NCBI GenBank assembly: GCA_032718475.1
Contig: JAUCBJ010001154.1
Location: forward strand, 62,001-126,000
Length of the DNA stretch: 64,000 bases
From: Nemertoderma westbladi
Taxonomy: Eukaryota; Animalia; Xenacoelomorpha
Direction of reading: 5' to 3'
The notes below the pieces were generated by a model. The model did no database searches. It was not told the origin of the DNA and worked only from the letters and a program-made list of their open reading frames with translations. The position numbers and the translations under genes were made by a program. Positions 1-53,097 of this stretch are shown piece by piece. Within the stretch, counting starts at the first letter, position 1. Each line of letters begins with the position of its first letter.

Positions 1-3000
1 TACCAGCAGTTAGTGACACAATCTACACACCCAGCAGTTAGTGACACAATCACACGTACCCAACAGTTAGTGACACAATCACACGTACCCAATAGTTAAT
101 TACACAATCTACACACCCAGCAGTTAGTGACATAATCACAAGTACCCAACAGTTAATGACATAATCTACACACCCAGCAGTTAGTGACACAATTACAAGT
201 ACCAGCAGTTAGTGACACAATCTACACACCCAGCAGTTAGTGACACAATCACACGTACCCAACAGTTAGTGACACAATCACACGTACCCAATAGTTAATG
301 ACATAATCTACACACCCATCAGTTAGTGACACAATCACAAGTACCCAATAGTTAGTGACACAATTACACGTACCCAATAGTTAGTGACACAATCACAAGT
401 ACCCAGCAGTTAGTGGCACAATTACACGTACCCAATAGTTAGTGACACAATCACAAGTACCAACAGTTAGTGACACAATCACACGTACCCAACAGTTAGT
501 GACACAATCACAAGTACCCAGCAGTTAGTGGCACAATTACACGTACCCAATAGTTAGTGACACAATCACAAGTACCAACAGTTAGTGACACAATCACACG
601 TACCCAACAGTTAGTGACACAATCACAAGTACCCAGCAGTTAGTGACACAATTACACGTACCCAATAGTTAGTGACACAATCACAAGTACCAACAGTTAG
701 TGACACAATCACACGTACCCAATAGTTAGTGACACAATCACAAGTACCCAACAGTTAGTGACACAATCACAAGTACCCAGCAGTTAGTGACACAATTACA
801 CGTACCCAATTGTTAGTGACACAATCACAAGTACCAACAGTTAGTGACACAATCACACGTACCCAACAGTTAGTGACACAATCACACGTACCCAATAGTT
901 AATGACACAATCTACACACCCATCAGTTAGTGCCACAATCACAAGTACCCAGCAGTTAGTGACACAATTACACGTACCCAATAGTTAGTGACACAATCAC
1001 AAGTACCAACAGTTAGTGACACAATCACACGTACCCAACAGTTAGTGACACAATCACACGTACCCAACAGTTAATGACATAATCTACACACCCATCAGTT
1101 AGTGACACAATCACACGTACCCAATAGTTAGTGACACAATAACAAGTACCAACAGTTAGTGACACAATCACACGTACCCAACAGTTAATGACATAATCTA
1201 CACACCCATCAGTTAGTGACACAATCACACGTACCCAATAGTTAGTGACACAATAACAAGTACCAACAGTTAGTGATACAATCACACGTATCCAACAGTT
1301 AGTGACACAATCACACGTACCCAGCAGTTAGTGACACAATCACACGTACCAGCAGTTAGTGACACAATCACACGTACCCAACAGTTAATGACATAATCTA
1401 CACACCCATCAGTTAGTGACACAATCACAAGTACCCAACAGTTAATGACATAATCTACACACCCATCAGTTAGTGACACAATCACAAGTTCCAACAGTTA
1501 GTGACACAATCACACGTACCCAACAGTTAGTGACACAATCACACGTACGCAGCAGTTAGTGACACAATCACACGTACCAGCAGTTAGTGACACAATCACA
1601 CGTACCCAACAGTTAATGACATAATCTACACACCCATCAGTTAGTGACACAATCACACGTACCCAATAGTTAGTGACACAATCACAAGTACCAACAGTTA
1701 GTGACACAATCACACGTACCCAACAGTTAGTGACACAATCACACGTACCCAGCCGTTAGTGACACAATCACACGTACCAACAGTTAGTGACACAATCACA
1801 CGTACCCAGCAGTTAGTGACACAATCACACGTACCAGCAGTTAGTGACACAATCACACGTACCCAACAGTTAATGACATAATCTACACACCCATCAGTTA
1901 GTGACACAATCACACGTACCCAATAGTTAGTGACACAATCACAAGTACCAACAGTTAGTGACACAATCACACGTACCCAACAGTTAGTGACGCAATCACA
2001 CGTACCCAGAAGTTGGTGACACAATCACACGTACCCAATAGTTAATGACACAATCACACATTTCCAGCAGTTAGTGACACAATCACACATTTCCAGCAGT
2101 TAGTTACTCAATCACAAGTACCAATCAGTTAGTGACACAATCACAAGTACCAACAGTTAGTGACACAATCACAAGTACCAACAGTTAGTGACACAATCAC
2201 ACATTTCCAGCAGTTAGTGACACAATCACACGTACCAGCAGTTAGTGACACAATCACACGTACCCAACAGTTAGTGACACAATTACACGTACCCAACAGT
2301 TAGAGACACAATCACACGTACCCAACAGTTAGTGACACAATCACACGTACCCAATAGTTAGTGACACAATCACACGTACCCAACAGTTAGTGACACAATC
2401 GCACGTACCCAATAGTTAGTGACACAATCACACGTACCCAATAGTTAATGACACAATCTACACACCCATCAGTTAGTGACACAATCACAAGTACCCAGCA
2501 GTTAGTGACACAATTACACGTACCCAATAGTTAGTGACACAATCACAAGTACCAACAGTTAGTGACACAATCACACGTACCCAACAGTTAGTGACACAAT
2601 CACACGTACCCAATAGTTAATGACACAATCACACGTACCCAACAGTTAATGACATAATCTACACACCCAGCAGTTAGTGACACAATCACAAGTACCCAAC
2701 AGTTAGTGACACAATCACACGTACCCAATAGTTAGTGACACAATCAAAAGTACCAACAGTTAGTGACACAATTACACGTACCCAACAGTTAGTGACACAA
2801 TTACAAGTACCAATCAGTTAGTGACACAATCACAAGTACCAACAGTTAGTGACACAATCACACGTACCCAACAGTTAGTGACACAATCACACGTACCCAA
2901 TAGTTAATGACACAATCTACACACCCATCAGTTAGTGACACAATCACAAGTACCCAGCAGTTAGTGACACAATTACACGTACCCAATAGTTAGTGACACA

Positions 3001-5345
3001 ATCACAAGTACCAACAGTTAGTGACACAATCACACGTACCCAACAGTTAGTGACACAATCACACGTACCCAACAGTTAATGACATAATCTACACACCCAT
3101 CAGTTAGTGACACAATCACACGTACCCAATAGTTAATTACACAATCTACACACCCATCAGTTAGTGACACAATCACAAGTACCCAACAGTTAGTGACACA
3201 ATCACACGTACCCAATAGTTAGTGACACAATCAAAAGTACCAACAGTTAGTGACACAATTACACGTACCCAACAGTTAGTGACACAATTACAAGTACCAA
3301 TCAGTTAGTGACACAATCACAAGTACCAACAGTTAGTGACACAATCACACGTACCCAACAGTTAGTGACACAATCACACGTACCCAATAGTTAATGACAC
3401 AATCTACACACCCATCAGTTAGTGACACAATCACAAGTACCCAGCAGTTAGTGACACAATTACACGTACCCAATAGTTAGTGACACAATCACAAGTACCA
3501 ACAGTTAGTGACACAATCACACGTACCCAACAGTTAGTGACACAATCACACGTACCCAACAGTTAATGACATAATCTACACACCCATCAGTTAGTGACAC
3601 AATCACACGTACCCAATAGTTAGTGACACAATAACAAGTACCAACAGTTAGTGACACAATCACACGTATCCAACAGTTAGTGACACAATCACACGTACCC
3701 AGCAGTTAGTGACACAATCACACGTACCAGCAGTTAGTGACACAATCACACGTACCCAACAGTTAATGACATAATCTACACACCCATCAGTTAGTGACAC
3801 AATCACAAGTACCCAACAGTTAATGACATAATCTACACACCCATCAGTTAGTGACACAATCACAAGTTCCAACAGTTAGTGACACAATCACACGTACCCA
3901 ACAGTTAGTGACACAATCACACTTACGCAGCAGTTAGTGACACAATCACACGTACCAGCAGTTAGTGACACAATCACACGTACCCAACAGTTAATGACAT
4001 AATCTACACACCCATCAGTTAGTGACACAATCACACGTACCCAATAGTTAGTGACACAATCACAAGTACCAACAGTTAGTGACACAATCACACGTACCCA
4101 ACAGTTAGTGACACAATCACACGTACCCAGCCGTTAGTGACACAATCACACGTACCAACAGTTAGTGACACAATCACACGTACCCAACAGTTAGTGACAC
4201 AATCACACGTACCCAGCAGTTAGTGACACAATCACACGTACCAGCAGTTAGTGACACAATCACACGTACCCAACAGTTAATGACATAATCTACACACCCA
4301 TCAGTTAGTGACACAATCACACGTACCCAATAGTTAGTGACACAATCACAAGTACCAACAGTTAGTGACACAATCACACGTACCCAACAGTTAGTGACAC
4401 AATCACACGTACCCAGCAGTTGGTGACACAATCACACGTACCAGCAGTTAGTGACACAATCACACGTACCCAACAGTTAATGACATAATCTACACACCCA
4501 GCAGTTAGTGACACAATCACAAGTACCCAACAGTTAATGACATAATCTACACACCCAGCAGTTAGTGACACAATTACACGTACCCAACAGTTAGTGACAC
4601 AATCTACACACCCATCAGTTAGTGACATAATCACAAGTACCCAGCAGGTAGTGACACAATCACAAGTACCCAACAGTTAATGACATAATCTACACACCCA
4701 GCAGTTAGTGACACAATCACAAGTACCCAACAGTTAATGACATAATCTACACACCCATCAGTTAGTGACACAATCACAAGTACCCAGCAGTTAGTGACAC
4801 AATCACAAGTACCCAACAGTTAATGACATAATCTACACACCCAGCAGTTAGTGACACAATCACAAGTACCCAACAGTTAATGACATAATCTACACACCCA
4901 GCAGTTAGTGACACAATTACACGTACCCAACAGTTAGTGACACAATCACACGTACCCAGCAGTTAGTGACACAATTACACGTACCCAATAGTTAGTGACA
5001 CAATCACAAGTACCAACAGTTAGTGACACAATCACACGTACCCAATAGTTAGTGACACAATTACACGTACCCAATAGTTAATGACACAATCTACACACCC
5101 ATCAGTTAGTGACATAATCACAAGTACCAACAGTTAGTGACACAATCACAAGTACCCAGCAGTTAGTGGCACAATTACACGTACCCAATAGTTAGTGACA
5201 CAATCACAAGTACCAACAGTTAGTGACACAATCTACACACCCAGCAGTTAATGACACAATCTACACACCCATCAGTTAGTGACATAATCACAAGTACCCA
5301 GCAGTTAGTGACAAAATCACAAGTATCGAGCACTTAGTAACACAA
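1..5345. repeat. Satellite array of 28-29 bp units (consensus CAGTTAGTGACACAATCACACGTACCCAA), runs off the left edge
   Basis: Continuous tandem units with several recurring variants; the overlapping ORFs are repeat translations. Confidence 0.97.
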
Positions 5346-5414
5346 TATTCCGTATCAACCACCCTGACCAGAATCAGAATTTTGTTGCGAAACTTTATCT
5401 AATCTATCTTCCAG

Positions 5415-6770: not shown

Positions 6771-8691
6771 TGTGAAATCAACCCAGATCGGCAACGACAA
6801 TATTGCATGTAGTTTCTCTGTGAAATCAACCCAGATCGGCAACGACAATATTGCATGTAGTTTCTCTGTGAAATCAACCCAGATCGGCAACGACAATATT
6901 GCATGTAGTTTCTCTGTGAAATCAACCCCGATCGGCAACGACAATATTGCATGTAGTTTCTCTGTGAAATCAACCCAGATCGGCAACGACAATATTGCAT
7001 GTAGTTTCTCTGTGAAATCAACCCCGATCGGCAACGACAATATTGCATGTAGTTTCTCTGTGAACTCAACCCAGATCGGCAACGACAATATTGCATGTAG
7101 TTTCTCTGTGAAATCAACCCCGATCGGCAACGACAATATTGCATGTAGTTTCTCTGTGAAATCAACCCAGATCGGCAACGACAATATTGCATGTAGTTTC
7201 TCTGTGAAATCAACCCCGATCGGCAACGACAATATTGCATGTAGTTTCTCTGTGAAATCAACCCAGATCGGCAACGACAATATTGCATGTAGTTTCTCTG
7301 TGAAATCAACCCAGATCGGCAACGACAATATTGCATGTAGTTTCTCTGTGAAATCAACCCAGATCGGCAACGACAATATTGCATGTAGTTTCTCTGTGAA
7401 ATCAACCCAGATCGGCAACGACAATATTGCATGTAGTTTCTCTGTGAAATCAACCCCGATCGGCAACGACAATATTGCATGTAGTTTCTCTGTGAAATCA
7501 ACCCAGATCGGCAACGACAATATTGCATGTAGTTTCTCTGTGAAATCAACCCAGATCGGCAACGACAATATTGCATGTAGTTTCTCTGTGAAATCAACCC
7601 AGATCGGCAACGACAATATTGCATGTAGTTTCTCTGTGAAATCAACCCAGATCGGCAACGACAATATTGCATGTAGTTTCTCTGTGAAATCAACCCAGAT
7701 CGGCAACGACAATATTGCATGTAGTTTCTCTGTGAAATCAACCCAGATCGGCAACGACAATATTGCATGTAGTTTCTCTGTGAAATCAACCCAGATCGGC
7801 AACGACAATATTGCATGTAGTTTCTCTGTGAACTCAACCCAGATCGGCAACGACAATATTGCATGTAGTTTCTCTGTGAAATCAACCCAGATCGGCAACG
7901 ACAATATTGCATGTAGTTTCTCTGTGAAATCAACCCAGATCGGCAACGACAATATTGCATGTAGTTTCTCTGTGAACTCAACCCAGATCGGCAACGACAA
8001 TATTGCATGTGTTTCTCTGTGAAATCAACCCCGATCGGCAACGACAATATTGCATGTAGTTTCTCTGTGAACTCAACCCAGATCGGCAACGACAATATTG
8101 CATGTAGTTTCTCTGTGAAATCAACCCCGATCGGCAACGACAATATTGCATGTAGTTTCTCTGTGAAATCAACCCCGATCGGCAACGACAATATTGCATG
8201 TAGTTTCTCTGTGAAATCAACCCAGATCGGCAACGACAATATTGCATGTAGTTTCTCTGTGAAATCAACCCCGATCGGCAACGACAATATTGCATGTAGT
8301 TTCTCTGTGAAATCAACCCAGATCGGCAACGACAATATTGCATGTAGTTTCTCTGTGAAATCAACCCCGATCGGCAACGACAATATTGCATGTAGTTTCT
8401 CTGTGAACTCAACCCAGATCGGCAACGACAATATTGCATGTAGTTTCTCTGTGAAATCAACCCCGATCGGCAACGACAATATTGCATGTAGTTTCTCTGT
8501 GAACTCAACCCAGATCGGCAACGACAATATTGCATGTAGTTTCTCTGTGAAATCAACCCCGATCGGCAACGACAATATTGCATGTAGTTTCTCTGTGAAC
8601 TCAACCCAGATCGGCAACGACAATATTGCATGTAGTTTCTCTGTGAAATCAACCCCGATCGGCAACGACAATATTGCATGTAGTTTCTCTG
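6771..8691. repeat. 48-bp minisatellite, about 40 near-identical copies
   Basis: Unit TGTGAAATCAACCCAGATCGGCAACGACAATATTGCATGTAGTTTCTC; two recurring SNPs and one 1-bp deletion near 8011. Confidence 0.98.
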
Positions 8692-10126: not shown

Positions 10127-11653
10127 CTACGTTTCAACTAAGTTCCATTGCATAAGCACTGCATCAGGGCCGCCTACGGTAATGAGCTTGGAACCCCGAA
10201 GGAAACGAACATTAGTAACGTTCCCGCTGGTGAGTTTAGTTTCGAAGAACTGAGCGCGCCGACTGGCGCACGGGTAGCGGTAGATCCGTAGGTATCCCTG
10301 CGTGTCCCCAACCGTTAGCACGTCCCGCTGCGGCTCGGCCCTATCGCAGCAGTTCACGTCGACGCCCAGCTGCAGTCCGGGCCATATCCCCGCGACGTGG
10401 TAGCCCAGTATGCAGGTGTGCGAGGCCCAATCAACGTCACGTGACTCTACCCCCCTCGCGATCTGTCGCAACTGCGCGGCGTCCCAGTAGTAAATCCTGT
10501 AGTCCCCGGTCACAGTCTGCATGTAGGAGTTGTTACCAGACCAGTCGATGTGCGTTACAAACGTGCTATGTCCGGTCAGCTGTCCGCTTTTACGGTACGA
10601 CGACCCGGCATCCTGCACCTCGAACAAATAAACATTGCAGTCGTGGCTGCTCGCAGCTAAAGCTCGCCCATCAGGACGGAAGGAAAGGCAGTCCAGTTGC
10701 TCTATTCCGATCTGGTAGCTTGCCATGTGGATGCCAGAGACGGCGTTGAGAACGATAATTCGTCCCACGGTCGTTCCCAAAGCAATGCTTTTACCTTGTG
10801 GATGAAATGACGCTGTTAGACACGGCTTCTCCACCATTGCTTTCCAGATAGGTTTGCGTGAGTCGAAATCCCACAAGATAGCCTGCAGATCATACCCGGC
10901 CGTCATAAACTTGGCCTCTGTGGGATGCACGCACAAAGCCCACACATCCTGCGTGTGTCCTTGCACCGTGTATCGAAACTTTGTTTGCATAGATCCCTCT
11001 AGAATGGCGTTATGAGTCGTCCCGATGTATATTGAACCATCGAGACCGCCGTCTCGACCCGCCACGATCGTTCGAATCCCTCCGGCGGTCTCCGGCAATG
11101 TCCGACCCGACATGGCGCTGGTGAAACCACCCGTGGAGTCCCACGCTATAATCCGCCTGTCGTAACCGCCCCCCGATAGCAGGGTGCCGTCGTCCAACAC
11201 ACATAGAGAGTATAGAGCCTGCTCGTGAGCGTGTTGGATGCGGTGTTTAACTCGGTAGGCGTTGATGTTATCGCAGGACCACACTGTAATAGATCCTGAC
11301 GAGTCCCCCGTTATTAAACTCTCGTCTGCGGTGAACGCTATGCTCGTTATGTAATCGGGAACATCTGTCCCGAATATGCCGCTCTTTTTATCTCGTAAAA
11401 GTTTGCCATCGAGGAGTTTCCAGAAGTATAAATGTTGTTTCCCTGCAGTAATTATTGTTCTCTCGTCGTACGGCTGGAAAGCCCCAAGAACCACCGTCTC
11501 TGGGTGAGTTTTCGACCGCGCTAACAATCGTTCTTCGTCCCAACTCCATAGTAACAATGAGTGGTCGCCCTCCCCATCAATAGCTAGTAGCCAATCACCG
11601 CGGTTGGATTGTTTCGAGAACATTGCTACTGCGACATCTCCTGTAAACATGTC
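10127..11653 (-). CDS. DCX-EMAP-like protein, exon 3 (WD40 repeats of the EML TAPE domain, stop codon)
   Basis: Acceptor TTTTATCCGCAG, phase 0, joining ILGM|DMFTGDV; EML motifs GHSTFVTHIDWS, YRYPC, VTNVRF. Confidence 0.93.
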   Translation of the reverse strand, partial: DMFTGDVAVAMFSKQSNRGDWLLAIDGEGDHSLLLWSWDEERLLARSKTHPETVVLGAFQPYDERTIITAGKQHLYFWKLLDGKLLRDKKSGIFGTDVPDYITSIAFTADESLITGDSSGSITVWSCDNINAYRVKHRIQHAHEQALYSLCVLDDGTLLSGGGYDRRIIAWDSTGGFTSAMSGRTLPETAGGIRTIVAGRDGGLDGSIYIGTTHNAILEGSMQTKFRYTVQGHTQDVWALCVHPTEAKFMTAGYDLQAILWDFDSRKPIWKAMVEKPCLTASFHPQGKSIALGTTVGRIIVLNAVSGIHMASYQIGIEQLDCLSFRPDGRALAASSHDCNVYLFEVQDAGSSYRKSGQLTGHSTFVTHIDWSGNNSYMQTVTGDYRIYYWDAAQLRQIARGVESRDVDWASHTCILGYHVAGIWPGLQLGVDVNCCDRAEPQRDVLTVGDTQGYLRIYRYPCASRRAQFFETKLTSGNVTNVRFLRGSKLITVGGPDAVLMQWNLVET

Positions 11654-11873
11654 CTGCGGATAAAAGAACAATTATTTTAAACAATTAAACTACCATTTTA
11701 ATATACCCACCCACCTTTACACTGTATTGTATTTCAATTTCTTGTCTTCTTTCCGATTGATCTTTTGCATATTTTTTTAATTAGTCAAATTTCAATATTA
11801 TTCTTATCTATTGTATAATATAATTGTATAATAAGTTGTATCCACACTTATTTCATTTAGGCCATAAAATAGT

Positions 11874-11975
11874 TGTGGGGCGAGCCACGAAGTTGGCGGA
11901 GCCTTAGCGAATTGACACTGTTAGAGGGTGGGTCAATTTATGCAAATAGTTGTCGTCGTCGTCGTCGTCGTCGTT

Positions 11976-12014
<39 letters not shown>

Positions 12015-12884
12015 GTCGTCGTTACGATTTTGACATGCTAATAACTTTGTCGGATTTAAAGCTGCCAAGTTGAAAATTTGTAGGTATCAATATGAGCAAA
12101 AGTTGAGATTTTTGAGAGACTTTCAGACACCATCAGTGCAATGGTCTCCCGCTAGAGGGCCACATGTCTAAACATTAAATGCCCTCCCATTTCTTTGCTT
12201 TTAATCCGTTTAAGCTGAAACTTGGCAGATATGTATTAGACCATTAGCTGTGACTTTCAAAGGAGGCGAATCCATCTGCAGTTCTCCAGTCTGCCGCTAG
12301 AGGGCCAAATGTCTGAAAGTGAAATCGTTGTCGTCGTTATGATATTGACATGCTTATAACTTTGTCGAATTTAAAGCTGCCAAGTTGAAAATTTGTTTTG
12401 TTGAAAATCAGTTCAACAGTCACCCGCTATAGGACTACTTTATGCCTGAAAGTGAATAGATTCTCCCGTCTCATTGATTTTAATCAGTTTAAGCTGAATC
12501 TTGCCATATATTCTGGACCACATGCTGCGTCTTTGTGGGGGGGGGGGGGGGGGGGGGGGAGAGATTTAATCGGTCTGCCGCTATACGACGAAATTTCTGA
12601 AAGTGAGATCCGTCTCTCATTTCGTTATCCGTTATTCAAGATGAAACTTGGCCGATGTACGTATGTACTATTCATCCATAGGCTGTGTCTTTGTGGGGCT
12701 GGAGACCCTAATCCATCTTCAGTTCTCACTATACCGCTAGAGTCAGAAATGTCTGAATAGAAATGAAAGAGGTAAAAAGTGATTAGGCGAAATCTGCTTA
12801 AAATTTGCTAATACAGTAATACTTTCGAATTAGTACTTAAATTAAATTTAAGTCACGTGCTGCGCGAAGGCCCCACTTCGTGTA
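11874..12884 (+). mobile_element. Non-autonomous DINE-1/Helentron-like element in DCX-EMAP intron 2
   Basis: Starts TGTGGGGCGAGCCACG, has a (CGT)n microsatellite and diverged internal repeats (CCGCTAGAGGGC...), and ends CGTGCTGCGCGAAGGCCCCAC..CGTGT; termini shared with 21081-21719. Confidence 0.6.
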
Positions 12885-13799
12885 ACTTATACAGGTAAAT
12901 CAAATCTTTCAGTTTGCCTCTACCAACCATACATCATTCATTACTTTACCGGGACTTTTCTATTGTTAATGTTATCTTATTTTTAATAAGATTATTAGTT
13001 ATTAAAAGAATTACACGCACAAATGTAACAAACTTTATTGCTCGCGAACTCTGTCATCTATATTACCGGTAATTCAAATTTGAAAGAGATTTTCACTAAA
13101 TTAATGTCAAAATTACTAAAAATAATCACTCACACTAAATAATTTATTAATCATTAAAAAACATTGTAAATCCACTAAAATTAATGATTTATCACTAAAG
13201 ACAATCATTTATTCACTAAATATAATCATTATTATTTATTAAATAAAATATTTACAATCACTACATCATCACACCAAATACCATCATATTGTTAGGCCCG
13301 CTACTTGAATTGTCTTGGTTGTTTCATTGTGTCACGATAAGTTCCTTGGGGTAGTACGACCTGCCGCTCAGGTTCCACCGCGATATGTCACCAGGGGCGA
13401 AAGGTTCCTGCTGAAGTATTAGATTCCTTAGAAGAAAGGATCACGTTTGTAGAGGAGCAGGATACAGAGGCAGCGATAGGGGAACCAAACCAATAAACGA
13501 AAGTTAACGTGCAGGTTAGTAAAGAGTTACAATTAGGAAAAGATTTAACTAGGTTTAAAAAGGTTAAAAAAAAAAGGTTTAACTTTAAAGGGTAGAAATT
13601 ACGTCCGTTAGGTTCTGCAGCGTTAGTTCCTTCGATTTTCAGGGAAAGGAACAGATTACAGTGACATGTTATTCTAACAAAACAATAAATGAAAGTCATT
13701 AAATCGTTTTCTAGAATTCAGTTGTAAATCAGTTGTAAATAAAAATACAACATGCTACAAAATATTTATAATACAAATACACGCAGGACCTAATGGGAG

Positions 13800-14398
13800 C
13801 AGAGATGGGGGCCGGTTTTTCACGACCCGGGCCCGTGCCCGTTAATTTTAATTTTCTAAAAATTACAGCATAAAATAAAATTTTAACTTTTATGATCAAT
13901 TTGTATACACTGATTCAAATTACAATATCACTTTGTCATCGTGAGCCACTGATCTGGTAGTTTGTGGATTAGACGATACACACGTTGTGTAGGTCTGCCA
14001 TGTTTACATTTACTGTATGTTTGTTGTTTAAAATGAAATAATGTGCGTGCCTCATCGTTTTAGTTTCGATTACTAACTACTATCAGTCTGTGTCAGACAG
14101 TATCTCAATTTCGATTCAATTGTTTATTTATAACAAAATTAAACAAAAACGCAACAAAAATAAAACAGTAACAAAGTTAAACAAAGACAAAAATAAATGA
14201 TAAAACAACCCTAGTTATAATAAAATAAAATATACATGATAAAAAAATACATCATTTTGTGATAAAAAAAAGTGTAACAAAAATTTTCATATTTTTGTGT
14301 TTTGTTAACTGGATAATATAATTATTCAACAATAGCGGGCTTTCCAATAATTAGAATGTGGCCCAAACCCGGCCTGGCCCGGCCCGTGTCCATCTCTG
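13800..14398. mobile_element. hAT-like MITE
   Basis: TIR CAGAGATGG/CCATCTCTG, subterminal GGCCC repeats, 8-bp TSD AATGGGAG/AATGGGAA. Confidence 0.8.
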
Positions 14399-14887
14399 AA
14401 TGGGAATGACCAAAGGACCCAATGACGTGACCATTTAAAGCTGCAGTGGGACCTAATGCGAAATGGAAGGTGATTATTTTTAGAGAAAAATGATTAAAAT
14501 TTGTGGAATGTGAATAAATTTAGTGGAAAGTAATTAACTTTTAAATTAATTTAAGTGCAATATCATTATATTTAGTGGATAAATAATTAATATTGGAGCA
14601 ATCTGGTCTCAGGGAGATGATAATGTTACAGTAACACGCTATTCTAACCAAAACAATAAAATAAATTCAATAGCACAGGTTATAGTATATTTTTAAATCA
14701 GTAGTAATTTGTAATCAGCTGTTATTTGCGTCGATATTCCCCTGTAGAGGGATGAAATTTGAATGTATCAGGTGCGCCCCTTAGCGGCCCCCTACAGTAG
14801 TTGATGTACACACAACGGGGTATTGCTCGCTACAATTTCAGCCCTGTTGGATATTATTTCAATAATTAATTAATTAATTATATTTAC

Positions 14888-15335
14888 CATTCCCAATATT
14901 ACGAGTGTCGATAGAGTAGCACTGCTCCATATGCGTATCGGCGCCACGTTGGGATTCCCCGATAGACTCGCTTGTTGCCCAGTAACCACAGTCTCCTGGT
15001 CTGGATGGACGTCTAGACAGGAAATATCCTCTGTGTGGCCGAAGTAGTGTCTCTGTTTGTCCAGATCCTGGTTGTATATCACGGCTACGGTACCCACGTG
15101 GTACACAATCTCAGAGGAACCCAAAGTGTGTAAGTTATTCCGGGTATCGTAACCACGGTAACCGTATACCCAATCGAGAACCGGCTTGCGATCGGGCGGG
15201 AGGCCTTTCTCTTCCCATTGGGAAAGTTTGTCAGTTGAGGGAACGTAGAAGGACCTCTCCATCCCGTGAATGTTCACTGTTATCGTTTCTTCTAGATCAT
15301 CAGCTGTGTCATCTCTATCAACCATTGCGTCGTAA
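14888..15335 (-). CDS. DCX-EMAP-like protein, exon 2 (HELP motif and first WD40)
   Basis: LDWVYGYRGYDTRNNLH HELP motif and QRHYFGHTEDISCL; acceptor ..AATAATAG (phase 2), donor ATG|GTAAAT (phase 0). Confidence 0.93.
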
Positions 15336-15788
15336 CTATTATTGCGAAAACAAGAAATTTAGTAAATTTAGGAACTTTATTATTTTAGACAATAAATATT
15401 TAAGTTTATTTTGTGGTAATTCGTAGGATCGTACAATACTGTATATTCCACATTCGATAATAAAACGTAACGGAAAACACTCTTTTCCACTCATTTTCTT
15501 TAGCGAAATTCACAGATATTCCGCCCTAGTGTATTGAGTTTTTGTTGAGTTTGGTATTCTAGTAAACTCCTGTAAAACTCAAGCGCTCGAACAGAATAGT
15601 TGAATTTGGCTAATCTGAAAATGAGTGAAAAAATCGGTGTACTCCGCTTACTTTTTATAAGTTTAGTCCATTCCGTTCCGATGGCCTTAATCTTTCTCTC
15701 CAATGGTCCACATATATTTTACTCATATATATCTGCACTCAGTTTACCAATTCGGTTGTTGAACTGATATATCACTAACTGCACTCAC

Positions 15789-17674
15789 CTTACTAACGCA
15801 TCCTGCGATATTGTACTCATCTCCCTTGAAGAGGATCCAAACAACTTCTGCCTTTCCGTGGCCCCGTCCGTGGTGGAAGCTTGGTACCCCGCTCCTCCGG
15901 TGTCTGTCTGCACTGTATCCGGTTTCCGGGACAACGAGTAGCTACCGCCGTATCCGTTGCGATGCTGGTCTTTATTTCGAGCGCTCCGCCCTTGATAATA
16001 ATTAGACACTGGTTTGTCCACAGGGATCTCGTTTTGTATATGTGTTACATCTCGCAGCGCTTCGTGGCCACAACAAATGAATTTATCATTTTTCGCGCTG
16101 TCGCTTAGTAGTTGAGAGACGCTGGTGATCCTCCCGCCCGTCTGCATCGAGTACAGCCTACGAATCGGGGGGCTAGCCATGTGAATTGTAGAGCCCATCG
16201 AGTTTAGTATTTGTTCAAAAGTTTGTTTAGTTTTCGGGTGTATTAACACTCTGCCTTGACTTTGTCTGTGGGTGTTACTTACGACATTTATATACCGCGG
16301 CTTTGAAGTGTGAAACACAGGTTTCGGTGATCCATTGCCATCTTGCGACGATGATAATGAATTAGAATGATCGCTTATCTCACGTCCTTTGTAAAGTAAC
16401 GTGTCCGTCTGTCGTCTGCCCCCTCCCGGCTGGAGATTGACCCAATGATTCTCTTTGGAATCTCCATAGCGACAACCAATCACAAAGCTCCCGCTCGCAC
16501 AAACGTATGATTTCTCGTGTTGTAGTTCTATGACCTCGTTCACTGGCTCTCCGTTCATTTTGTATAGGTACCTCACCCCGCAAGGCAAAGATATCTTTTC
16601 ACTTAGATAAACTAAAAGTGTCTCTAGAATTGGGAATTTTTTAAGGGAAATCGCCGTGGAGTAGCCGCGGAACTGAGAGTCCCCGTTGCGATAGAAATGG
16701 CACATATTGGCGCGATGGTGCACTATAAGTGGTAGACGCCTTTGTCTTACCTCGAAATTCCTCGGTAGAGGAATTTCGACGTCCAAATCTCCGCTGTTTG
16801 GGCTTTCCAGCTCAACATCCTGTCGATTCAAATGTTTTTTCGTGTTCCTGTTTTCGCCTCTTTGAAGCCTGGGGATTTGGCTCCGAGAACGATCTCTTTG
16901 TGAGCGATTTGTTTGGTCAATAATGCTCCTCTTATTATCAAGTTCACCGTCGTAAACAATAACTGGTATATTGTTTGCATCATTCATTGCTGTCCTCGAC
17001 ACATTGCGATTATGTGCGGGTTTCCTTGGTGATAGAACTTTCGCAGGGCTCCTGCGTATCGCGTAACTATCCCCCGCGATATCATCGGGTATTTCCTTGC
17101 GACCGAGTAGCGCCTGCGCGCGATACACTGCCGATTGTCGGGCCGGCAGATCCTCGATATTTAGGTTGGTTCCCGACTTGGGCCGATCGCTTCGCAGCCC
17201 CGAACGCTCGCTGACGGCAGACCCGTACCGCGAACGCGGCCGGTCCCCTTGCGAGCCGATCACGTGGAGCGTCGAGGGATTTTGATCCCTGGGGACGGTG
17301 ACCGAGATGGGGATCCTCACATCTTCGTTGTCGTCGACACCACGCGAACCATCGACGAAATCCCACAGAGCTTCAACGTTAATATCAACGTCCTTTTGAG
17401 TGATGTCCTCTACAACGTTGATAACGTCATGTTTATTGGTCCTCGCTTCCAACAGCTGTCTGCCCTCAATATTGTAGTAATCGTTACCGATATTAATAGT
17501 TATTGTTTTCAAACCGCTGGTCCGTTCCTCTTGTAACGAATGTATCATGTATCCAGGAAGGCTAATATGGACAGGAATTGTTGTTGCATGGTTATCGGTG
17601 ATCACTCTACTATCTTTATCTTGAGAGAACCGCTGATCACCCACATATACATCAACATTGTCTGTCTGACTCAT
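15789..17674 (-). CDS. DCX-EMAP-like protein, exon 1 (N-terminal region plus two doublecortin domains)
   Basis: DCX1 FYRNGDSQFRG...GVRYLY...SYVCAS; DCX2 PRYINVVSN...TFEQIL...IRRLYS...FICCGHE; donor AG|GTGAGT phase 2. The three exons total 3861 nt (1286 aa plus stop). Confidence 0.9.
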
Positions 17675-18029
17675 CTTAACATTAACTAGAATACTTCACT
17701 GTATTAATATTATTATACTACTACTGTTTTTAAATGAATAGTTAGAGGAAAAGTGAGAATGGAAACGACTACAGTAATTTTATAAAGTGCTTTACTCCAC
17801 TAATAATCGAAACCTCAGTGCAAGATATAATAGCACTAAACTAATAAAACTTAAAAACGTTTTGATATTTACTTTATATCATCTTATATCGAAACGGTAG
17901 GATATGACATTTTGAATTGGTTATGTTATTGCCGTTGTGATATAATTTGTTCTGAAGTTTCGATTCCCAACTGGAACAACAACAACAGCAAGTTCAGTAA
18001 TAGTGTTGAGGCTGCAAAAAAATATATTT

Positions 18030-24697: not shown

Positions 24698-24744
24698 CAA
24701 ATGTTGTTTGGAAGTCACATAGAATTCATCGGAATCTTAGGTCC

Positions 24745-25251
24745 GATTATTTAGAGCAGCAGTAGTTCCCGTACTCCTCTATGGGAGTCCATTCTGGGCT
24801 CTAACTGCTGAGGACACAAAATCTCTGGATGGCACATTCACAAGAATGCTACGCCGGGTTCATTGTGTCAAGTACAATGCACACATCTCCAACCAGACAC
24901 TATATAACATTGGAGGTGTCTCATTGGTTCCCCCAAGCTCGACACTAGAACAAAGCCGCCTCCGCTTTGCAGGACATTGCTTTCGCCGTGAGGACCAGCC
25001 AGTGCATAATTTTGTGCTTTGGTGGCCTCATGGAGTGAATAAGCATGGTGGACAGCATATGACTTTCTTGAGACGCATCTTAAAGGACACTGGCCTTGAA
25101 GATGCGAATGATCTAGCAAATGTCATTGGTGATAGGGAGTTGTGGCGGCGCAATTTATTCGACAAGCCGGCACAGTATTATTAATATATATGTAATGTAT
25201 ATATATAATGGAGCTGCAATGCAGCATGCCGATCCTAGTAGTAGTAGTAGA
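24745..25251 (+). mobile_element. RTE-like LINE 3' fragment, family A
   Basis: LFRAAVVPVLLYGS..W.LT....SLDGTFTRML..RLRFAGHCFR; ends in (TAG)n. Confidence 0.85.
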
Positions 25252-25654
25252 GTAAATGTTTCGTACCTGTCACCATACCCGAACTGGTGCACTGCACATG
25301 TACCTTTATCAAAAGCGATAATAGCTAATCCAAGTGTCTAAATAAACTCATCCAAGGTGAATTCAGGAGGTTAAACAGTACTACATTATATCTCTCTCAA
25401 TGATTTTAATTATTGATAGTAACAATGTGTTGGCAAGCTGTATTTTTCGAGGTGTTTGTTATTATACATTTATTATAGGAAGGGATCTAGGGGTCTTTAC
25501 CTCGAATGATAAGTTTATTTTACCGAAAATAACTTATCTTTTATTGGCGCAATTGTAGGACTAATCCCATCACATGCGTACTTTTTAACCGGGTAGTGTA
25601 CAAATTTAAGAATCGCGTAATTTTTCTTGAAATTAATATCTCATATCTCTCCAA

Positions 25655-25697
25655 ACCACGTACGCGTTTCGACCTTACTGGGTCTCATCAGCGTGGT
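25655..25697 (-). ncRNA. Type I hammerhead ribozyme
   Basis: Minus strand reads ACCACG CUGAUGA GACC-CAGUAA-GGUC GAAAC GC GUA CGUGGU: intact core, stems I and II, short palindromic stem III. Confidence 0.9.
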
Positions 25698-26067
25698 GTC
25701 GGATTCGAACCTGGGACCTCGAGGTGGAAGCCGAGACTACAACCACTAGGCCACAGGTTCTTGAGATATGGAGTATTAATTTCAAAGCCAGCTGCCATTT
25801 TATTAGCCCCTGAGTTTTTTGATTATTGATAGTAACAATGTGTTGGCAAGCTGTATTTTTCGAGGTGTTTGTTATTATACATTTATTATAGGAAGGGATC
25901 TAGGGGTCTTTACCTCGAATGATAAGTTTATTTTACCGAAAATAACTTATCTTTTATTGGCGCAATTGTAGGACTAATCCCATCACATGCGTACTTTTTA
26001 ACCGGGTAGTGTACAAATTTAAGAATCGCGTAATTTTTCTTGAAATTAATATATCATATCTCTCCAA

Positions 26068-26110
26068 ACCATGTACGCGTTTCGACCTTACTGGGTCTCA
26101 TCAGCGTGGT
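26068..26110 (-). ncRNA. Type I hammerhead ribozyme, second tandem copy
   Basis: Same core; one substitution in the stem I 3' strand (CAUGGU). Confidence 0.85.
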
Positions 26111-26177
26111 GTCGGATTCGAACTCTCGAATATCTCTCTCAATGATTTTAATACGATGTTAAGATTTGATGATAAAT

Positions 26178-26509
26178 TGGGGAGGTGGGAGAGGAAGGGG
26201 CATGTGTGACAAGGAATAAAGACGGGGGAGGTGGGAGAGGAAGGGGCGTGTGTGACAAGGAATAAAGACGGGGGAGGTGGGAGAGGAAGGGGCGTGTGTG
26301 ACAAGGAATAAAGACGGGGGAGGTGGGAGAGGAAGGGGCGTGTTTGACAAGAAATAAAGACGGGGGGGGGGGGGGGGGGGTGGGAGAGGAAGGGGCGTGT
26401 GTGACAAGGAATAAAGACGGGGGGTGGGAGAGGAAGGGGCGTGTGTGACAAGGAATAAAGACAGGGGAGGTGGGAGTGGAAGGGGTGTGTGTGACAAGGA
26501 ATAAAGACG
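26178..26509. repeat. G-rich 46-bp minisatellite, about 7 copies
   Basis: Unit GGGGGAGGTGGGAGAGGAAGGGGCGTGTGTGACAAGGAATAAAGAC. Confidence 0.93.
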
Positions 26510-33299: not shown

Positions 33300-34157
33300 A
33301 ATCCATGCGGAACTCATACTAAGAGATCCATGTGGAACTCATACTAAGGGATCCATGTGGAACTCATATTAAGAGATCCATGTGGAACTCATACTAAGAG
33401 ATCCATGTGGAACTCATACTAAGGGATCCATGTAGGACTCATTCTAAGAGATCCATGTGGAACTCATACTAAGGGATCCATGTTGAACTCATACTAAGGG
33501 ATCCATGTGGAACTCATACTAAGGGATCCATGTGGAACTCATACTAAGGGATCCATGTGGAACTCATACAAAGGGATCCTTATGGAACTCATACTAAGGG
33601 ATCCATGTTGAACTCATACTAAGGGATCCATGTGGAACTCATACTAAGGGATCCATGTGGAACTCATACTAAGGGATCCATGTGGAACTCATACTAAGGG
33701 ATCCTTATGGAACTCATACTAAGGGATCCATGTGGAACTCATACTAAGGGATCCATGTTGAACTCATACTAAGGGATCCATGTGGAAGTCATACTAAGGG
33801 ATCCGTGTGGAACTCATACTAAGGGATCCATGTTGAACTCATACTAAGGATCCATGTGGAACTCATACTAAGGGATCCTTATGGAACTCATACTAAGGGA
33901 TCCATGTGGAACTCATACTAAGGGATCCATGTTGAACTCATACTAAGGGATCCATGTGGAACTCATACTAAGGGATCCTTATGGAACTCATACTAAGGGA
34001 TCCATGTGGAACTCATACTAAGGGATCCATGTTGAACTCATAATAAGGGATCCATGTGGAAGTCATACTAAGGGATCCATGTGGAACTCATACTAAGGGA
34101 TCCATGTGGGACTCATACTAAGGGATCCTTATGCAACTCATACTAAGGGATCCATGT
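33300..34157. repeat. 25-bp minisatellite, about 34 copies
   Basis: Unit GGGATCCATGTGGAACTCATACTAA. Confidence 0.96.
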
Positions 34158-34415
34158 CATTACGGGTGTCACTACGGGCACCACTACGGGTGTCACTACG
34201 GCTACCTACTACGGGTACCGATTTCAGACTTTTGACAGACTACATGTGTACCATGATTATTGATAGTAACAATGTGTTGGCAAGCTGTATTTTTCGAGGT
34301 GTTTGTTATTATACATTTATTATAAGAAGGGATCTAGACTATCAATAATCAAAAATCAGGGGCTAATAAAATGGCAGCTGTCTTTGAAATTAATACTCCA
34401 TATCTCAAGAACCTG

Positions 34416-34468
34416 TGGCCTAGTGGTTGTAGTCTCGGCTTCCGCCTCGAGGTCCCAGGTTCGAATCC
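34416..34468 (+). promoter_or_regulatory. tRNA-derived internal Pol III promoter (A box and B box)
   Basis: A box TGGCCTAGTGG 34416-34426; B box GGTTCGAATCC 34458-34468; anticodon-arm-like hairpin with CTTCC loop between them; no proper acceptor stem. Confidence 0.8.
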
Positions 34469-34471
34469 GAC

Positions 34472-34514
34472 ACCACGCTGATGAGACCCAGTAAGGTCGA
34501 AACGCGTACGTGGT
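34472..34514 (+). ncRNA. Type I hammerhead ribozyme (predicted cleavage after GUA, 34508)
   Basis: ACCACG/CGTGGT stem I, CTGATGA, GACC/GGTC stem II, GAAAC, ACGCGT palindromic stem III. Confidence 0.9.
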
Positions 34515-36303
34515 TTGGAGAGATATGAGATATTAATTTCAAGAAAAAATTACGCGATTCCTAAATTTGTACACTACCCGGTTAAAAAGTACGCATGTGA
34601 TGGGATTAGTCCTACAATTGCGCACAAAAGATAAGTTATTTTCGGTAAACTAAACTTATCATTCGAGGTTAAGACCCCTAGATCCCTTCTTATAATAACA
34701 TGTGTACCAAGTTCGGTTTATTTACGTGGACGGACTGACGGACAGACAGACTGATAGACCGCTCGACGAACAATGTTAGAAACATCGGACCCCGCATTCA
34801 TAGATTACCACGGTATATAAGTCTTGGATGTGTCTATGATTGGCCCCTATAGGGATCCATAAATGTTTTTTCTTTATGAAATAATGAAACTTTTTCCGAA
34901 ATGTAAAAAAGTTACCTTTTTTTAATAATATGTACTAATAAATAACTTTGTATAACTAACACACATTGGTATATTATAAATTATTTAAATATATTATACA
35001 ACACAGTTGCTCTTAGTCATAAATACTGCAGCAAAATGATTATCATCTTATTATTACTATGGTAACTATACTCTGAGCCAAAAGTAAACGTACTACTTAT
35101 TAGCTCTGTTGATTAATTAAAGGAAAGGACCAGGTTACAGCGGCACGTTATTTTAACCAAAACAATAATGGACGTGATACTACGTAAACTTTTGGCTCAT
35201 AATAATATTGAATATAATATATACTGTAGTGTTAATTTAATATATTATGCACTAATATGCTTCGAGAATATAGTTTTACATTGTACAGTAGTTGTGTAAC
35301 TTCGAAACAATTAGACAAAGCAATTAGTTGTTTTTGAACAATCTGCTAGCAGCAACGTTTTTTTATAAATATCACTATACACATTTTAATAGCTGACATT
35401 ATAATATTATATATGGGAAAAAACACTAAATTCAGATAGACAACCGCTTAGCTCGACATTAAATAATAAATTGCACATACTATATCATACCAAGCTACTC
35501 TACAGAGATTGTCGAAGCCAACTTCATAAGAAAACAAATACGTAAACATTCATTACCATTTAGTTTATCTGTCGTTTGTTTTTGATGGATGAAACACAAA
35601 ATATGAAAAAATAACTATGTTTTTAGACCACTTTTATTAAAACTACCAACAACTGCACCTACATCGCGACGACGACGATATGGTTGGTTTTATTAACAAT
35701 CTTGTAACAATATGCAAATAGCATTTTACTGGGGGGTCGGGTAGCGCCCCCAAATACAACTTTTCATTGTGACGTTTCCGCAGCCTAAAATTGAGTGAAA
35801 ATTGAAGTTAGTGCTACCAAATATCGTCTGGGGAGTTTAGGAATGGCCAAACCAATTTTTGTTGGGAGCCTTTTTGCTGGGCCTTATTCAAATGAAAATA
35901 TCGTGCTGCTCGAAGGCTTGTCAAAAAACAGAATAGCTTTTACGTTTTAACCAATAACTCTATAGTTTCAGAAATAGATATAGATAATAGATATGAGAAA
36001 TATGCTTGCAGATTTGAAATCGGCATTACATTCGGCACAGGATAGGATCATATTCAAAAATACGGGGTCGCTACCCCCCCCCCCCCCCCCCCCCTTAATT
36101 AAAGATTTTTCACTTTACAAATAGAGTCATCACATCAACTTCTAATTTTGTATTGCGCAACTTGTTTACTTACCGTAAAATAAAATAATATTCGTATAAT
36201 AACTGAACTACTGCACCTATTACATTACTTACACGTTGTAAGTAACAATCACTACTGCTTGTAATGTTGTTACTGTAGACTTACTGTATGAGTATACGTA
36301 GTA

Positions 36304-42977: not shown

Positions 42978-43236
42978 GCGCAGCTTGGTCTAGTGGTGAC
43001 ATTCCTGGGCTTCCAATTAGGGAGCCCTGGTTCGATCCCTAGATGGGGCAGCACTATTTGGGCACAGTGCTTTAAATGCTGCAGCCTAGCCCAACCCCGG
43101 CTTTCATCCTTCAGTGGTCGATAAATGGGAACCAAGGCAACTTGGGAAACAGAGTGGAGGGGTTTACTGTGGAAGATCACCCATGGTGGTGAAGAGGCAT
43201 TCCTTGGCTTAACGAGCCTAAAATATTCTCCCAATA
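42978..43236 (+). mobile_element. tRNA-derived SINE, apparently full length
   Basis: A box TGGTCTAGTGG, B box GGTTCGATCCC, central GCTTTCATCCTTCAGTGGTCGATAAATG block; truncated copy at 45568-45785. Confidence 0.8.
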
Positions 43237-44195: not shown

Positions 44196-44664
44196 GTACT
44201 GCATTGCATACAGCACTTCTCATACATGGCGAACCTCCCGAAGGAACTTACCCAAAAAAGTCGTCTCTACAGAACAGCTTCCCGCTTCGTACAAAGCATT
44301 TATCGTTTAGTACTGCATTGCATACAGCACTTCTCATACATGGAGAACCTCCCGAAGGAACTTACCCAAAAAAGTCGTCTCTACAGAACAGCTTCCCGCT
44401 TCGTACAAAGCATTTATCGTTTAGTACTGCATTGCATACAGCACTTCTCATACATGGAGAACCTCCCGAAGGAACTTACCCAAAAAAGTCGTCTCTACAG
44501 AACAGCTTCCCGCTTCGTACAAAGCATTTATCGTTTAGTACTGCATTGCATACAGCACTTCTCATACATGGAGAACCTCCCGAAGGAACTTACCCAAAAA
44601 AGTCGTCTCTACAGAACAGCTTCCCGCTTCGTACAAAACATTTATCGTTTAGTAGTGCATTGCA
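44196..44664. repeat. 114-bp tandem repeat (4 units) spanning the LIM1 exon 3' end and its splice donor
   Basis: CTTACC recurs at 44247, 44361, 44475 and 44589. Confidence 0.95.
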
Positions 44665-52952: not shown

Positions 52953-53097
52953 TATAAAGTGTTCACTGTTCAACTTTGCGAGTTAGTTTGACGCTCCTCT
53001 CTCTACCTTACAGGAAACAGCCAAGAGAGAGGAGCCAACGGATTGCCACCGATGTTGATGATGATGTTGATGTATAAAACAGAGATCGGAATTAAAT

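What the first reader, a model, noticed from the sequence alone, without database searches (positions are those of the whole stretch)
25388..26152. Head-to-tail 1.7-mer inside a single TSD pair implies a circular or multimeric RNA template
Seen: two hammerheads exactly 413 bp apart between one 23-bp TSD pair. The 3' end (25411) is not at the ribozyme cut site and differs by about 65 nt from the 3' end of the 34-kb copy. Inference: permuted ends and greater-than-unit length fit rolling reverse transcription of a circular RNA, and cleavage at both ribozymes would release a 413-nt monomer. The palindromic stem III (ACGCGU) is the type known to favour dimeric hammerheads.
Basis: partly seen in the sequence, partly recalled or inferred. 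Interest (0 to 1): 0.8.

Follow-up and report, generated by a model that had tools for sequence, protein, structure and literature searches.

The report
tRNA-headed retrozyme with Penelope-type ends
A 719-base insertion in an animal genome holds 1.7 head-to-tail copies of an abundant non-coding repeat with a predicted self-cutting RNA behind a tRNA-like promoter motif; it was likely pasted in one step from an RNA longer than one unit (a circle or an uncut multimer), a known kind of element whose copy ends cluster at two internal sites like those of Penelope transposons.

Summary
In detail: a 23-bp TSD encloses 719 bp (1.74 units of 413 bp) with two type I hammerhead cores 413 bp apart and an ACGCGU stem III. 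In two DNA runs the family is very abundant and continuous head to tail, so a local DNA duplication is unlikely. But 3' ends are not freely permuted. They pile up at 25822-25823, with a weaker group at 25877-25886: the two sites used by the window's copies. This resembles the two internal start sites ('tail') of Penelope-like elements, and needs no circle. An RNA template longer than one unit is well supported; circle versus uncut linear multimer is not resolved. One closed 411-nt contig in a run only guessed to be RNA is a weak hint. At this locus the upstream ribozyme has a stem I mismatch and no A box. Verdict: new member of a known kind (animal non-LTR retrozyme of Sm-alpha design). The scan already noted 411-412-bp elements of this design elsewhere in this genome.

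The parts
25388..25410 (.). Target-site duplication, copy at the element's 3' end (23 bp)
26130..26152 (.). Target-site duplication, copy at the element's 5' end (23 bp)
25411..26129 (-). Inserted element, 719 bp = 1.74 units of 413 bp; 5' end truncated inside the tRNA-like head, last 6 nt (26124-26129) rearranged
25411..25710 (-). Downstream repeat (B-box end, ribozyme, body); differs from 25824-26123 at 2 of 300 positions
25824..26123 (-). Upstream repeat; carries both private changes (26053, 26072)
   Evidence: the 34-kb copy agrees with the downstream repeat at both
25655..25697 (-). Type I hammerhead, intact: stem I 6 bp, stem II 4 bp, stem III ACGCGU; predicted cut between 25661 and 25660
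26068..26110 (-). Type I hammerhead with a stem I mismatch at 26072; predicted cut between 26074 and 26073
25701..25757 (-). tRNA-like head: A box 25753-25743, B box 25711-25701 (predicted internal Pol III promoter)
   Evidence: ARAGORN only at a relaxed, unspecific threshold
26114..26124 (-). B-box remnant of the truncated upstream head (no A box)
25763..25785 (-). Arm of a 23-nt inverted repeat that pairs with 25627-25649 (or 26040-26062) and is predicted to extend stem I and bring the monomer's ends together
25661..26073 (-). Predicted 413-nt monomer between the two cut sites
25820..25824 (-). Main 3'-end (inferred RT start) site of the family, in an A-rich predicted loop; equals 25407-25411 one unit down
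25877..25886 (-). Second, weaker 3'-end site; equals 25464-25473 one unit down
34242..34253 (.). 12-bp TSD of the second insertion, left copy
34254..34337 (-). Inverted 5' arm of the second insertion (84 nt, = 25820-25903, 1 mismatch); its 3' end lies at the main site
34338..34697 (+). Main block of the second insertion (= 25833 to 25471): linker, head 34416-34468, hammerhead core 34478-34508, body; 3' end at the second site
34698..34709 (.). 12-bp TSD of the second insertion, right copy

Best explanation
This is one insertion of an abundant 413-bp non-coding repeat (an animal non-LTR retrozyme with a tRNA-like head) that was likely written in a single step by a Penelope-type reverse transcriptase, which likely started at a preferred internal A-rich site of an RNA circle and read 1.74 times round it. 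Shown: the anatomy, the head-to-tail continuity of the family, the clustering of 3' ends, and the inverted arm with a one-sided extension in the 34-kb copy. Inferred: Pol III starts at the head of one unit of a tandem source locus and reads into the next unit; two hammerheads pair through ACGCGU and cut out a 413-nt monomer; a host ligase closes it; the endonuclease of an autonomous element nicks an AT-rich target 23 bp apart on the two strands; the enzyme primes at the loop near 25822 (sometimes at a second site about 60 nt upstream in the RNA); priming from the second strand gives inverted arms. Odds by step: retrozyme class and one-step insertion from a template longer than one unit about 0.9; Penelope-type enzyme about 0.75; circle rather than linear multimer about 0.55.
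For: One TSD pair round 1.74 units. Both copies in the window cross the ribozyme cut site and the start of the head, so neither a cut linear monomer nor a single head-initiated monomer can be the template. The two repeats differ at 2 of 300 positions and share all other differences from the 34-kb copy, among them two minority states of the family (majority letter differs at 25609 in 94% and 96% of summed depth, at 25911 in 83% and 89%): one template or one homogeneous source. All 30 bins of the unit are covered in X1 and X2, the linker (25763-25790) about as deeply as the body. 3' ends with unlike flanks: 25822 (16 contigs in X1, 20 in X2), 25823 (10 in X2), 25877 (6 in X2), 25886 (5 in X1), out of 275 and 294 partly laid contigs; far above a uniform null. 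The 34-kb copy uses both sites, has an inverted 5' arm overlapping the main block by 14 nt and a 63-64-nt one-sided extension; Penelope copies show the same layout with a 15-bp overlap and a 31-bp tail (PMC3846280; PMC8557442), and the tail is the stretch between two internal RT start sites (PMC11167929). The inverted arm has no primer homology. The circular monomer folds at z = -4.3 (0 of 60 shuffles as stable) with stems I and II formed and both start sites mostly unpaired. Known retrozymes accumulate largely as circles (PMC7229834). Weak hint: run X4 holds the unit as a single closed 411-nt contig and nothing of the neighbouring high-copy repeat.
Against: In the one Penelope-like element tested in vitro, ribozyme cleavage was not needed and unprocessed RNA was the main substrate (PMC11167929). 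One contig in X2 shows a copy that begins at 25757, the start of the head (record 12), as expected from a linear Pol III transcript, and this copy's own 5' end stops about 45 nt short of that point. The extension here is 55-64 nt, not the 30-40 nt of known tails; the 23-bp TSD is longer than the 8-10 bp in the rotifer examples. The 25-kb 3' junction has 6 of 7 matching bases with the internal A tract, which suits LINE-type priming. Only 12 of 348 loose-end rows were shown, the main cluster holds 6-10% of partly laid contigs, the second cluster lies 9 nt apart in the two runs, and the two runs share loci. X4 is RNA only by guess, bears another organism label, and a closed contig also arises from tandem DNA or multimeric RNA. 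No autonomous partner could be sought (no genome held).
Confidence: 0.5

Rival explanations
1. Same element and same enzyme, but the template was a linear, uncut Pol III read-through transcript of a tandem source locus. The enzyme started internally in the second unit and stopped about 45 nt short of the transcript's 5' end. Circles may exist but are not the substrate.
For: Unprocessed RNA is the main substrate of the anole Penelope-like element in vitro (PMC11167929). A 1-bp stem III ribozyme cuts poorly alone (PMC7229834; PMC4209133), so uncut multimers should persist. The 5' end lies inside the upstream head; one X2 copy starts at 25757. The unit has one T4 run and none of T5 or longer on the sense strand.
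Against: The scarcity of T runs is no more than composition predicts (P = 0.57 for T4, 0.68 for T5). The 34-kb main block and its inverted arm end at 25833 and 25903, upstream of any head start, so they need a longer multimer. The few other 5' ends seen are spread (25654, 25693, 25737, 25774). Unchecked notes describe insertions of four or five identical units in one TSD (e1-10596620, e1-10596982), which a circle explains more simply.
Confidence: 0.3
2. A LINE enzyme, not a Penelope-type one, copied the RNA, priming on the internal A tract with a T-rich target end; the 34-kb inversion is ordinary twin priming on one long template.
For: 6 of 7 primer bases match the A tract at the 25-kb junction; consensus flanks at 25822-25823 end T-rich; TSD of 23 bp; the 34-kb arms nearly abut (14-nt overlap; 433 nt in all, longer than one unit); an unchecked note reports a 412-bp array joined to a LINE tail (e1-10596620).
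Against: The inverted arm has no primer homology, which twin priming needs (own knowledge). Both ends of the 34-kb copy fall on the two family-wide sites. There is no poly(A) or simple-repeat tail. The hammerhead type and partial tandems are Penelope features.
Confidence: 0.15
3. The enzyme copied ribozyme-cut linear monomers and jumped from the 5' end of one to the 3' end of the next, twice, at the cut site.
For: Template jumps are invoked for Penelope elements. One locus has a 5' end 5-6 nt from the cut site (25654 in X1; 26068 in X2).
Against: All three cut-site junctions in the window are free of added or lost bases. Depth shows no step at the cut site.
Confidence: 0.07
4. A monomer was inserted, and a later local DNA duplication (or a DNA-level move of a satellite piece) made the 1.7-mer.
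For: The two repeats share private variants, as a local duplication would also give. An empty or one-unit allele was not tested.
Against: The period equals the family unit exactly. The 113-nt stretch between the repeats is family sequence joined the same way in the 34-kb copy and in contigs of X1, X2 and X4, so there is no locus-specific junction. The 3' end sits on the family's main end site. A 23-bp TSD bounds the whole.
Confidence: 0.03

Closest known systems
Animal non-LTR retrozymes (Cervera and de la Pena 2020, PMC7229834; Li, Clavereau and Pollet, bioRxiv 10.64898/2026.07.22.740005)
   Same: Type I hammerhead in each 150-450-bp tandem unit, GC under 50% (39% here), TSD longer than 4 bp, 1-bp stem III with palindromic tetraloop as in the axolotl HHR_Amex1, self-paired predicted circle. 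Tandem cDNA from a circle and mobilisation by Penelope-like elements are already proposed there.
   Different: The parts of these papers that I read describe no tRNA-like promoter, no mapped 3'-end sites and no inverted arms (supplements not seen). Cleavage and circles were shown there by experiment, here only predicted.
Schistosoma Sm-alpha / Sj-alpha SINE-like hammerhead retroposons (seen through PMC6765202, PMC2770079, PMC8490949; the original papers were not read)
   Same: tRNA-derived Pol III promoter directly followed by a type I hammerhead, in tandem units; the promoter ends up at the 3' end of the cut monomer, so that at least a dimer is needed to propagate.
   Different: Unit of 413 bp against about 335 bp. 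Sequence homology to Sm-alpha was not tested. Penelope-type ends are not described for it in the passages read.
Endonuclease-positive Penelope-like elements (PMC3846280, PMC8557442, PMC11167929, PMC4209133)
   Same: Partial tandem with a 5'-truncated upstream copy, inverted 5' arm overlapping the direct copy by about 15 bp, optional extension on one arm, two internal start sites in A/C-rich loops, dimer-type hammerhead.
   Different: No coding capacity. Extension 55-64 nt instead of 30-40. TSD 12 and 23 bp against 8-10 in the rotifer examples. tRNA-like head. No autonomous partner identified.
Plant LTR retrozymes (described in PMC6765202 and PMC7229834)
   Same: Two hammerheads in direct repeats of about 300 bp round a short middle part; predicted circular monomer.
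   Different: Type I, not type III ribozyme; TSD 23 bp, not 4; ends differ between copies, so the repeats are not LTRs.

Membership tests
Animal non-LTR retrozyme | Type I hammerhead with full catalytic core | tested here: met
   stem I pairs are kept through changes on both sides in L001 and L002
Animal non-LTR retrozyme | Head-to-tail units of 150-450 bp, each with a ribozyme | tested here: met
   413-bp period; continuity in other copies; the upstream ribozyme has one stem I mismatch
Animal non-LTR retrozyme | Non-coding, GC under 50%, TSD longer than 4 bp | tested here: met
   no ORF of 120 aa or more inside the element (three on the minus strand come from the flanking minisatellite, one overlapping by 29 nt); GC 39%; TSD 23 and 12 bp
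Animal non-LTR retrozyme | Self-cleavage and accumulation as linear and circular monomers | not testable with these tools
   only contigs were available; X4's closed contig is a weak hint
Animal non-LTR retrozyme | No primer-binding site or polypurine tract | not tested
   not searched for
Sm-alpha / Sj-alpha type | A box and B box at tRNA spacing directly before the hammerhead | tested here: met
   2 matches in the window, both in the element; 0 in 100 shuffles
Sm-alpha / Sj-alpha type | Head derived from a tRNA gene | tested here: inconclusive
   ARAGORN default: none; relaxed threshold calls it but also 36 places in the window; Rfam tRNA not hit at E 10
Sm-alpha / Sj-alpha type | Transcription by Pol III | not testable with these tools
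   motif only
Sm-alpha / Sj-alpha type | Sequence homology to the schistosome family | not tested
   no Sm-alpha sequence at hand; filed as the same design, not as a member
Mobilised by a Penelope-like element | Partial tandem and inverted 5'-truncated arm | tested here: met
   3 of the 15 joints shown (of 26) join opposite strands, one of them at the edge of the reference
Mobilised by a Penelope-like element | Two internal start sites with an optional tail between them | tested here: inconclusive
   two clusters seen, but 55-64 nt apart rather than 30-40; second cluster weak; 12 of 348 rows shown
Mobilised by a Penelope-like element | Initiation without homology to the cut DNA | tested here: inconclusive
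   none at the 34-kb inverted arm, 1 nt ungapped at the main block, 6 of 7 at the 25-kb junction
Mobilised by a Penelope-like element | An autonomous partner with a related terminal repeat | not testable with these tools
   no genome held; no RT or GIY-YIG family among the 16 of 34 long frames scanned in the window
Plant LTR retrozyme | Type III hammerhead, 4-bp TSD, fixed LTR ends | tested here: not met

The most novel reading that the evidence does not exclude
Sm-alpha-type tRNA-headed hammerhead repeats are the 'SINEs of Penelope': self-promoting RNA circles that carry two fixed landing loops about 60 nt apart for a Penelope-type reverse transcriptase, which starts there and rolls round the circle. 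The thousands of young genomic copies would then be a natural record that settles whether ribozyme-made circles are true retrotransposition intermediates.
Probability: 0.35. Interest if true: 0.6.

Novelty: new member of a known kind. Interest (0 to 1): 0.35.

Why it matters
The circle-to-tandem-cDNA cycle of retrozymes and their dependence on Penelope-like elements are proposed in print but, in the papers read, rest on co-occurrence and sequence similarity. This young, abundant family shows the Penelope insertion marks directly (two preferred internal 3' ends, inverted arm, one-sided extension) and also carries a Pol III-type head. It is therefore a good test system for the open question of whether the circle or the uncut multimer is copied. 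The locus itself is ordinary for its class and probably cannot start its own monomer.

Tried and rejected
No genome is held, so copies could not be tabulated directly and no partner element could be sought. No RNA holder listed. Rfam at gathering level: no hit. ARAGORN default: none; at relaxed threshold it is unspecific (36 hits) and is not used as evidence. Scarcity of T runs as a sign of Pol III read-through: not significant, dropped. B-box plus hammerhead pattern: 0 in viral contigs and 0 in metagenome contigs; a core-only pattern gave 2 loci, neither of this family. Look-up of earlier findings by sequence: none. Summed contig depth as a copy number: not valid by the tool's own note, used only qualitatively. 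Empty-site test: no joint skipping the insert among the 15 of 70 joints shown, and X2, X4 and X5 do not cover the unique flank 25280-25387: no information. High-depth X5 contigs sharing the head and ribozyme were considered as an autonomous partner and rejected, because the listed changes hit the catalytic core. LTR or TRIM reading rejected (TSD length, variable ends). Ferbeyre 1998 is not held; the supplement of PMC7229834 could not be read and may show TSD-flanked or inverted copies; bioRxiv supplements are closed.

Full report
Observation. The window is animal DNA: the best homologues of its EML-type protein are from amphioxus, sea cucumber and a brachiopod at 41-48% identity. A 23-nt exact repeat lies at 25388-25410 and 26130-26152 and nowhere else in the window. 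Between its copies lie 719 bp, 1.74 units of a 413-bp repeat. Complete type I hammerhead cores lie on the minus strand at 26104-26074 and 25691-25661, and a third on the plus strand at 34478-34508. The pattern has 3 matches and none in 100 shuffles; Rfam HH9 matches below its gathering score. The predicted cut follows 25661, 250 nt from the 3' end at 25411. Stem III is ACGCGU: one base pair and a palindromic tetraloop, the form described as weak alone and efficient as a dimer (PMC7229834; PMC4209133). Co-folding two copies of the intact ribozyme pairs these six bases and gains 8.3 kcal/mol over two monomers.

(a) An A box (25753-25743) and a B box (25711-25701) at tRNA spacing lie just upstream of the ribozyme; the pattern has 2 matches in the window, both in this element, and none in 100 shuffles. 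A tRNA origin is likely but not shown. This is the design of schistosome Sm-alpha (PMC6765202; PMC2770079). It recurs in an unrelated metagenome contig, L001: A and B boxes at 890-943, the same core at 969, and a direct repeat of about 1,012-bp period. (b) The 34-kb copy has its own 12-bp TSD (34242-34253 / 34698-34709), a main block (34338-34697 = 25833 to 25471) and an inverted 84-nt arm (34254-34337 = 25820-25903). Both outer ends are 3' ends, 63-64 nt apart on the unit, and the arms overlap by 14 nt. (c) The upstream ribozyme of the 25-kb copy has a C-A mismatch in stem I (26072) and only a B-box remnant, so this locus probably cannot make its own monomer without outside transcription.

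The family. No genome is held, so I used contigs of public runs. Of 12 runs listed, 7 hold part of the stretch and none is on record as RNA. On one unit (25553-25965), 3,645 contigs of X1 and 1,418 of X2 were laid. Summed depth is four orders of magnitude above the unique flank in X1; this is no copy number, but the family is very abundant. All 30 bins are covered, and the linker upstream of the head is about as deep as the body, with dips at the variable T run (25805-25832) and, in X2, inside the head. Head-to-tail continuity is thus the family's normal state, and there is no locus-specific junction in the 1.7-mer. The two repeats differ at 2 of 300 positions and share two minority states of the family. 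That shows one template or one homogeneous source; it does not choose between them. X1 matches the unique flank exactly and may be the window's own sample; X1 and X2 share loci, so they are not fully independent.

Ends. Of 348 loose-end rows, 12 were shown. 3' ends with unlike flanks lie at 25822 (16 contigs in X1, 20 in X2), 25823 (10 in X2), 25877 (6 in X2) and 25886 (5 in X1), out of 275 and 294 partly laid contigs. A further row (25816, 10 contigs in X1, median 16 nt, agreement 0.63) looks like a linker variant and was not counted. One search adds 25408 (6 in X2) and 25409 (1 in X5), the same site one unit down. Against a uniform null, corrected for 826 site-sides and computed after seeing the data, p is below 1e-18 for the main site and 0.002 and 0.02 for the second. 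The window's three 3' ends (25411 = 25824, 25820, 25470/1 = 25883/4) fall on these two sites. Both lie in predicted A-rich unpaired regions (0.95-0.98 and 0.71-0.87 unpaired, against a mean of 0.43). The few 5' ends seen are spread: 25654, 25693, 25737, 25757, 25774, and in the window 26123, 25833, 25903. So the ends are not freely permuted. Penelope-like elements start reverse transcription at two internal sites in an A/C-rich loop, and the stretch between is the optional tail (PMC11167929). Their insertions show partial tandems, an inverted 5' arm overlapping the direct copy by 15 bp and a tail on one arm (PMC3846280; PMC8557442; PMC8969392). The 34-kb copy fits this closely. Against it: the extension is 55-64 nt, not 30-40; the 23-bp TSD is long; the 25-kb junction has 6 of 7 bases of homology with the A tract, although the inverted arm has none; and most loose-end rows were not shown.

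Circle or multimer. Both copies cross the cut site and the head start, so the template was a circle, an uncut multimer, or cut monomers joined by jumps. For the circle: the monomer folds at z = -4.3 with a long stem that extends stem I and would hold the cut ends together (linear fold z = -2.8); studied retrozymes are largely circular; the three cut-site junctions are clean. Run X4 holds the unit as its only laid contig, 441 nt with a 30-nt self-overlap, that is a closed 411-nt loop, and has no cover on the neighbouring repeat that is deeper than the element in three DNA runs. X4 is RNA only by guess, bears a different organism label, and tandem DNA gives such loops too, so this is a weak hint. 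For the linear multimer: unprocessed RNA was the main substrate in vitro for the anole element; one X2 copy starts at the head start, 25757; and this copy stops about 45 nt short of it. I put the circle at about 0.55.

Comparison and novelty. The class (PMC7229834), the promoter-plus-ribozyme design (Sm-alpha), more-than-unit copying of a circle (PMC4209133) and the Penelope link (bioRxiv 10.64898/2026.07.22.740005) are all in print. I found no mapping of two preferred 3'-end sites for a retrozyme or for Sm-alpha in the listings or in the texts read; supplements were not seen and subscription papers are not held. Papers seen: bioRxiv 2026.07.22.740005 parts 1-3 of 5; PMC7229834 parts 2-4 of 6; PMC11167929 passages and the second half of the main text; passages only of PMC8557442, PMC2770079, PMC3846280, PMC6765202, PMC8969392, PMC4209133, PMC8490949; Ferbeyre 1998, Laha 2000 and Lunse 2017 only as cited there. 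The A-box and B-box consensus, hammerhead numbering and the twin-priming rule are from my own knowledge. Earlier notes of this scan describe 411-412-bp tRNA-headed hammerhead insertions on other pieces of this genome; they are probably the same family, I could not check them, and my reading was set down before I saw them.

Verdict. A real, young insertion of a non-LTR retrozyme of Sm-alpha design, made in one step from an RNA longer than one unit and most likely by a Penelope-type enzyme. New member of a known kind; interest 0.35.

Noticed in passing
run X5, record 21, laid on window 25418-25542: A 600-nt contig at depth 511.7 has 11 other letters; the 9 listed are all changes to G on the + strand (8 A>G, and one T>G where the family majority is A). 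This looks like A-to-I hyper-editing of an antisense copy, either in RNA (the run is DNA only by guess) or fixed after retrotransposition.
   Followed up: no
run X5, record 24, laid on window 25628-25736: A 1,831-nt contig at depth 401 carries a decayed head and hammerhead (changes in the catalytic core) joined to about 1.7 kb of other sequence.
   Followed up: partly
window 24741-25250: 3' end of another very high-copy repeat: a 147-aa frame followed by a (TAG)n tail, with sharp 3' ends at 25243-25250 in X1 and X2. It resembles a LINE C-terminus (recalled; no Pfam hit). It lies about 140 bp from the insertion.
   Followed up: partly
window 42983-43050 (+): Another tRNA-like sequence with A-box and B-box motifs, sharing three 7-8-nt words with the retrozyme head but without a hammerhead: possibly a related SINE or a tRNA-Gly pseudogene.
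   Followed up: partly
L001:890-1005: Unrelated GC-rich metagenome contig with A and B boxes, a hammerhead with the same ACGCGU stem III, and a diverged direct repeat of about 1,012-bp period: the same design in another organism.
   Followed up: partly
L002:261-303: Type I hammerhead with a near-identical core but no B box nearby and no tandem unit within the locus.
   Followed up: partly
runs X1 and X2 on window 25595-25761: Single contigs skip the head and ribozyme (25645 to 25761 in X1; 25595 to 25756 in both runs; letters between not known): possibly ribozyme-less variants.
   Followed up: no
window 10127-17695 (-): Pieces of an EML-type gene with doublecortin, HELP and two beta-propeller domains; both propellers lie mostly in one 514-aa frame.
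   Followed up: partly
window 61309-62610 (-): 433-aa frame of a major facilitator superfamily transporter.
   Followed up: no
window 3-5346, 6771-8691, 26179-26509, 33301-34157, 44196-44664, 53091-53706: Many unrelated tandem arrays (periods 29, 48, 46, 25, 114, 46). Both retrozyme insertions lie within about 90 bp of a minisatellite.
   Followed up: no
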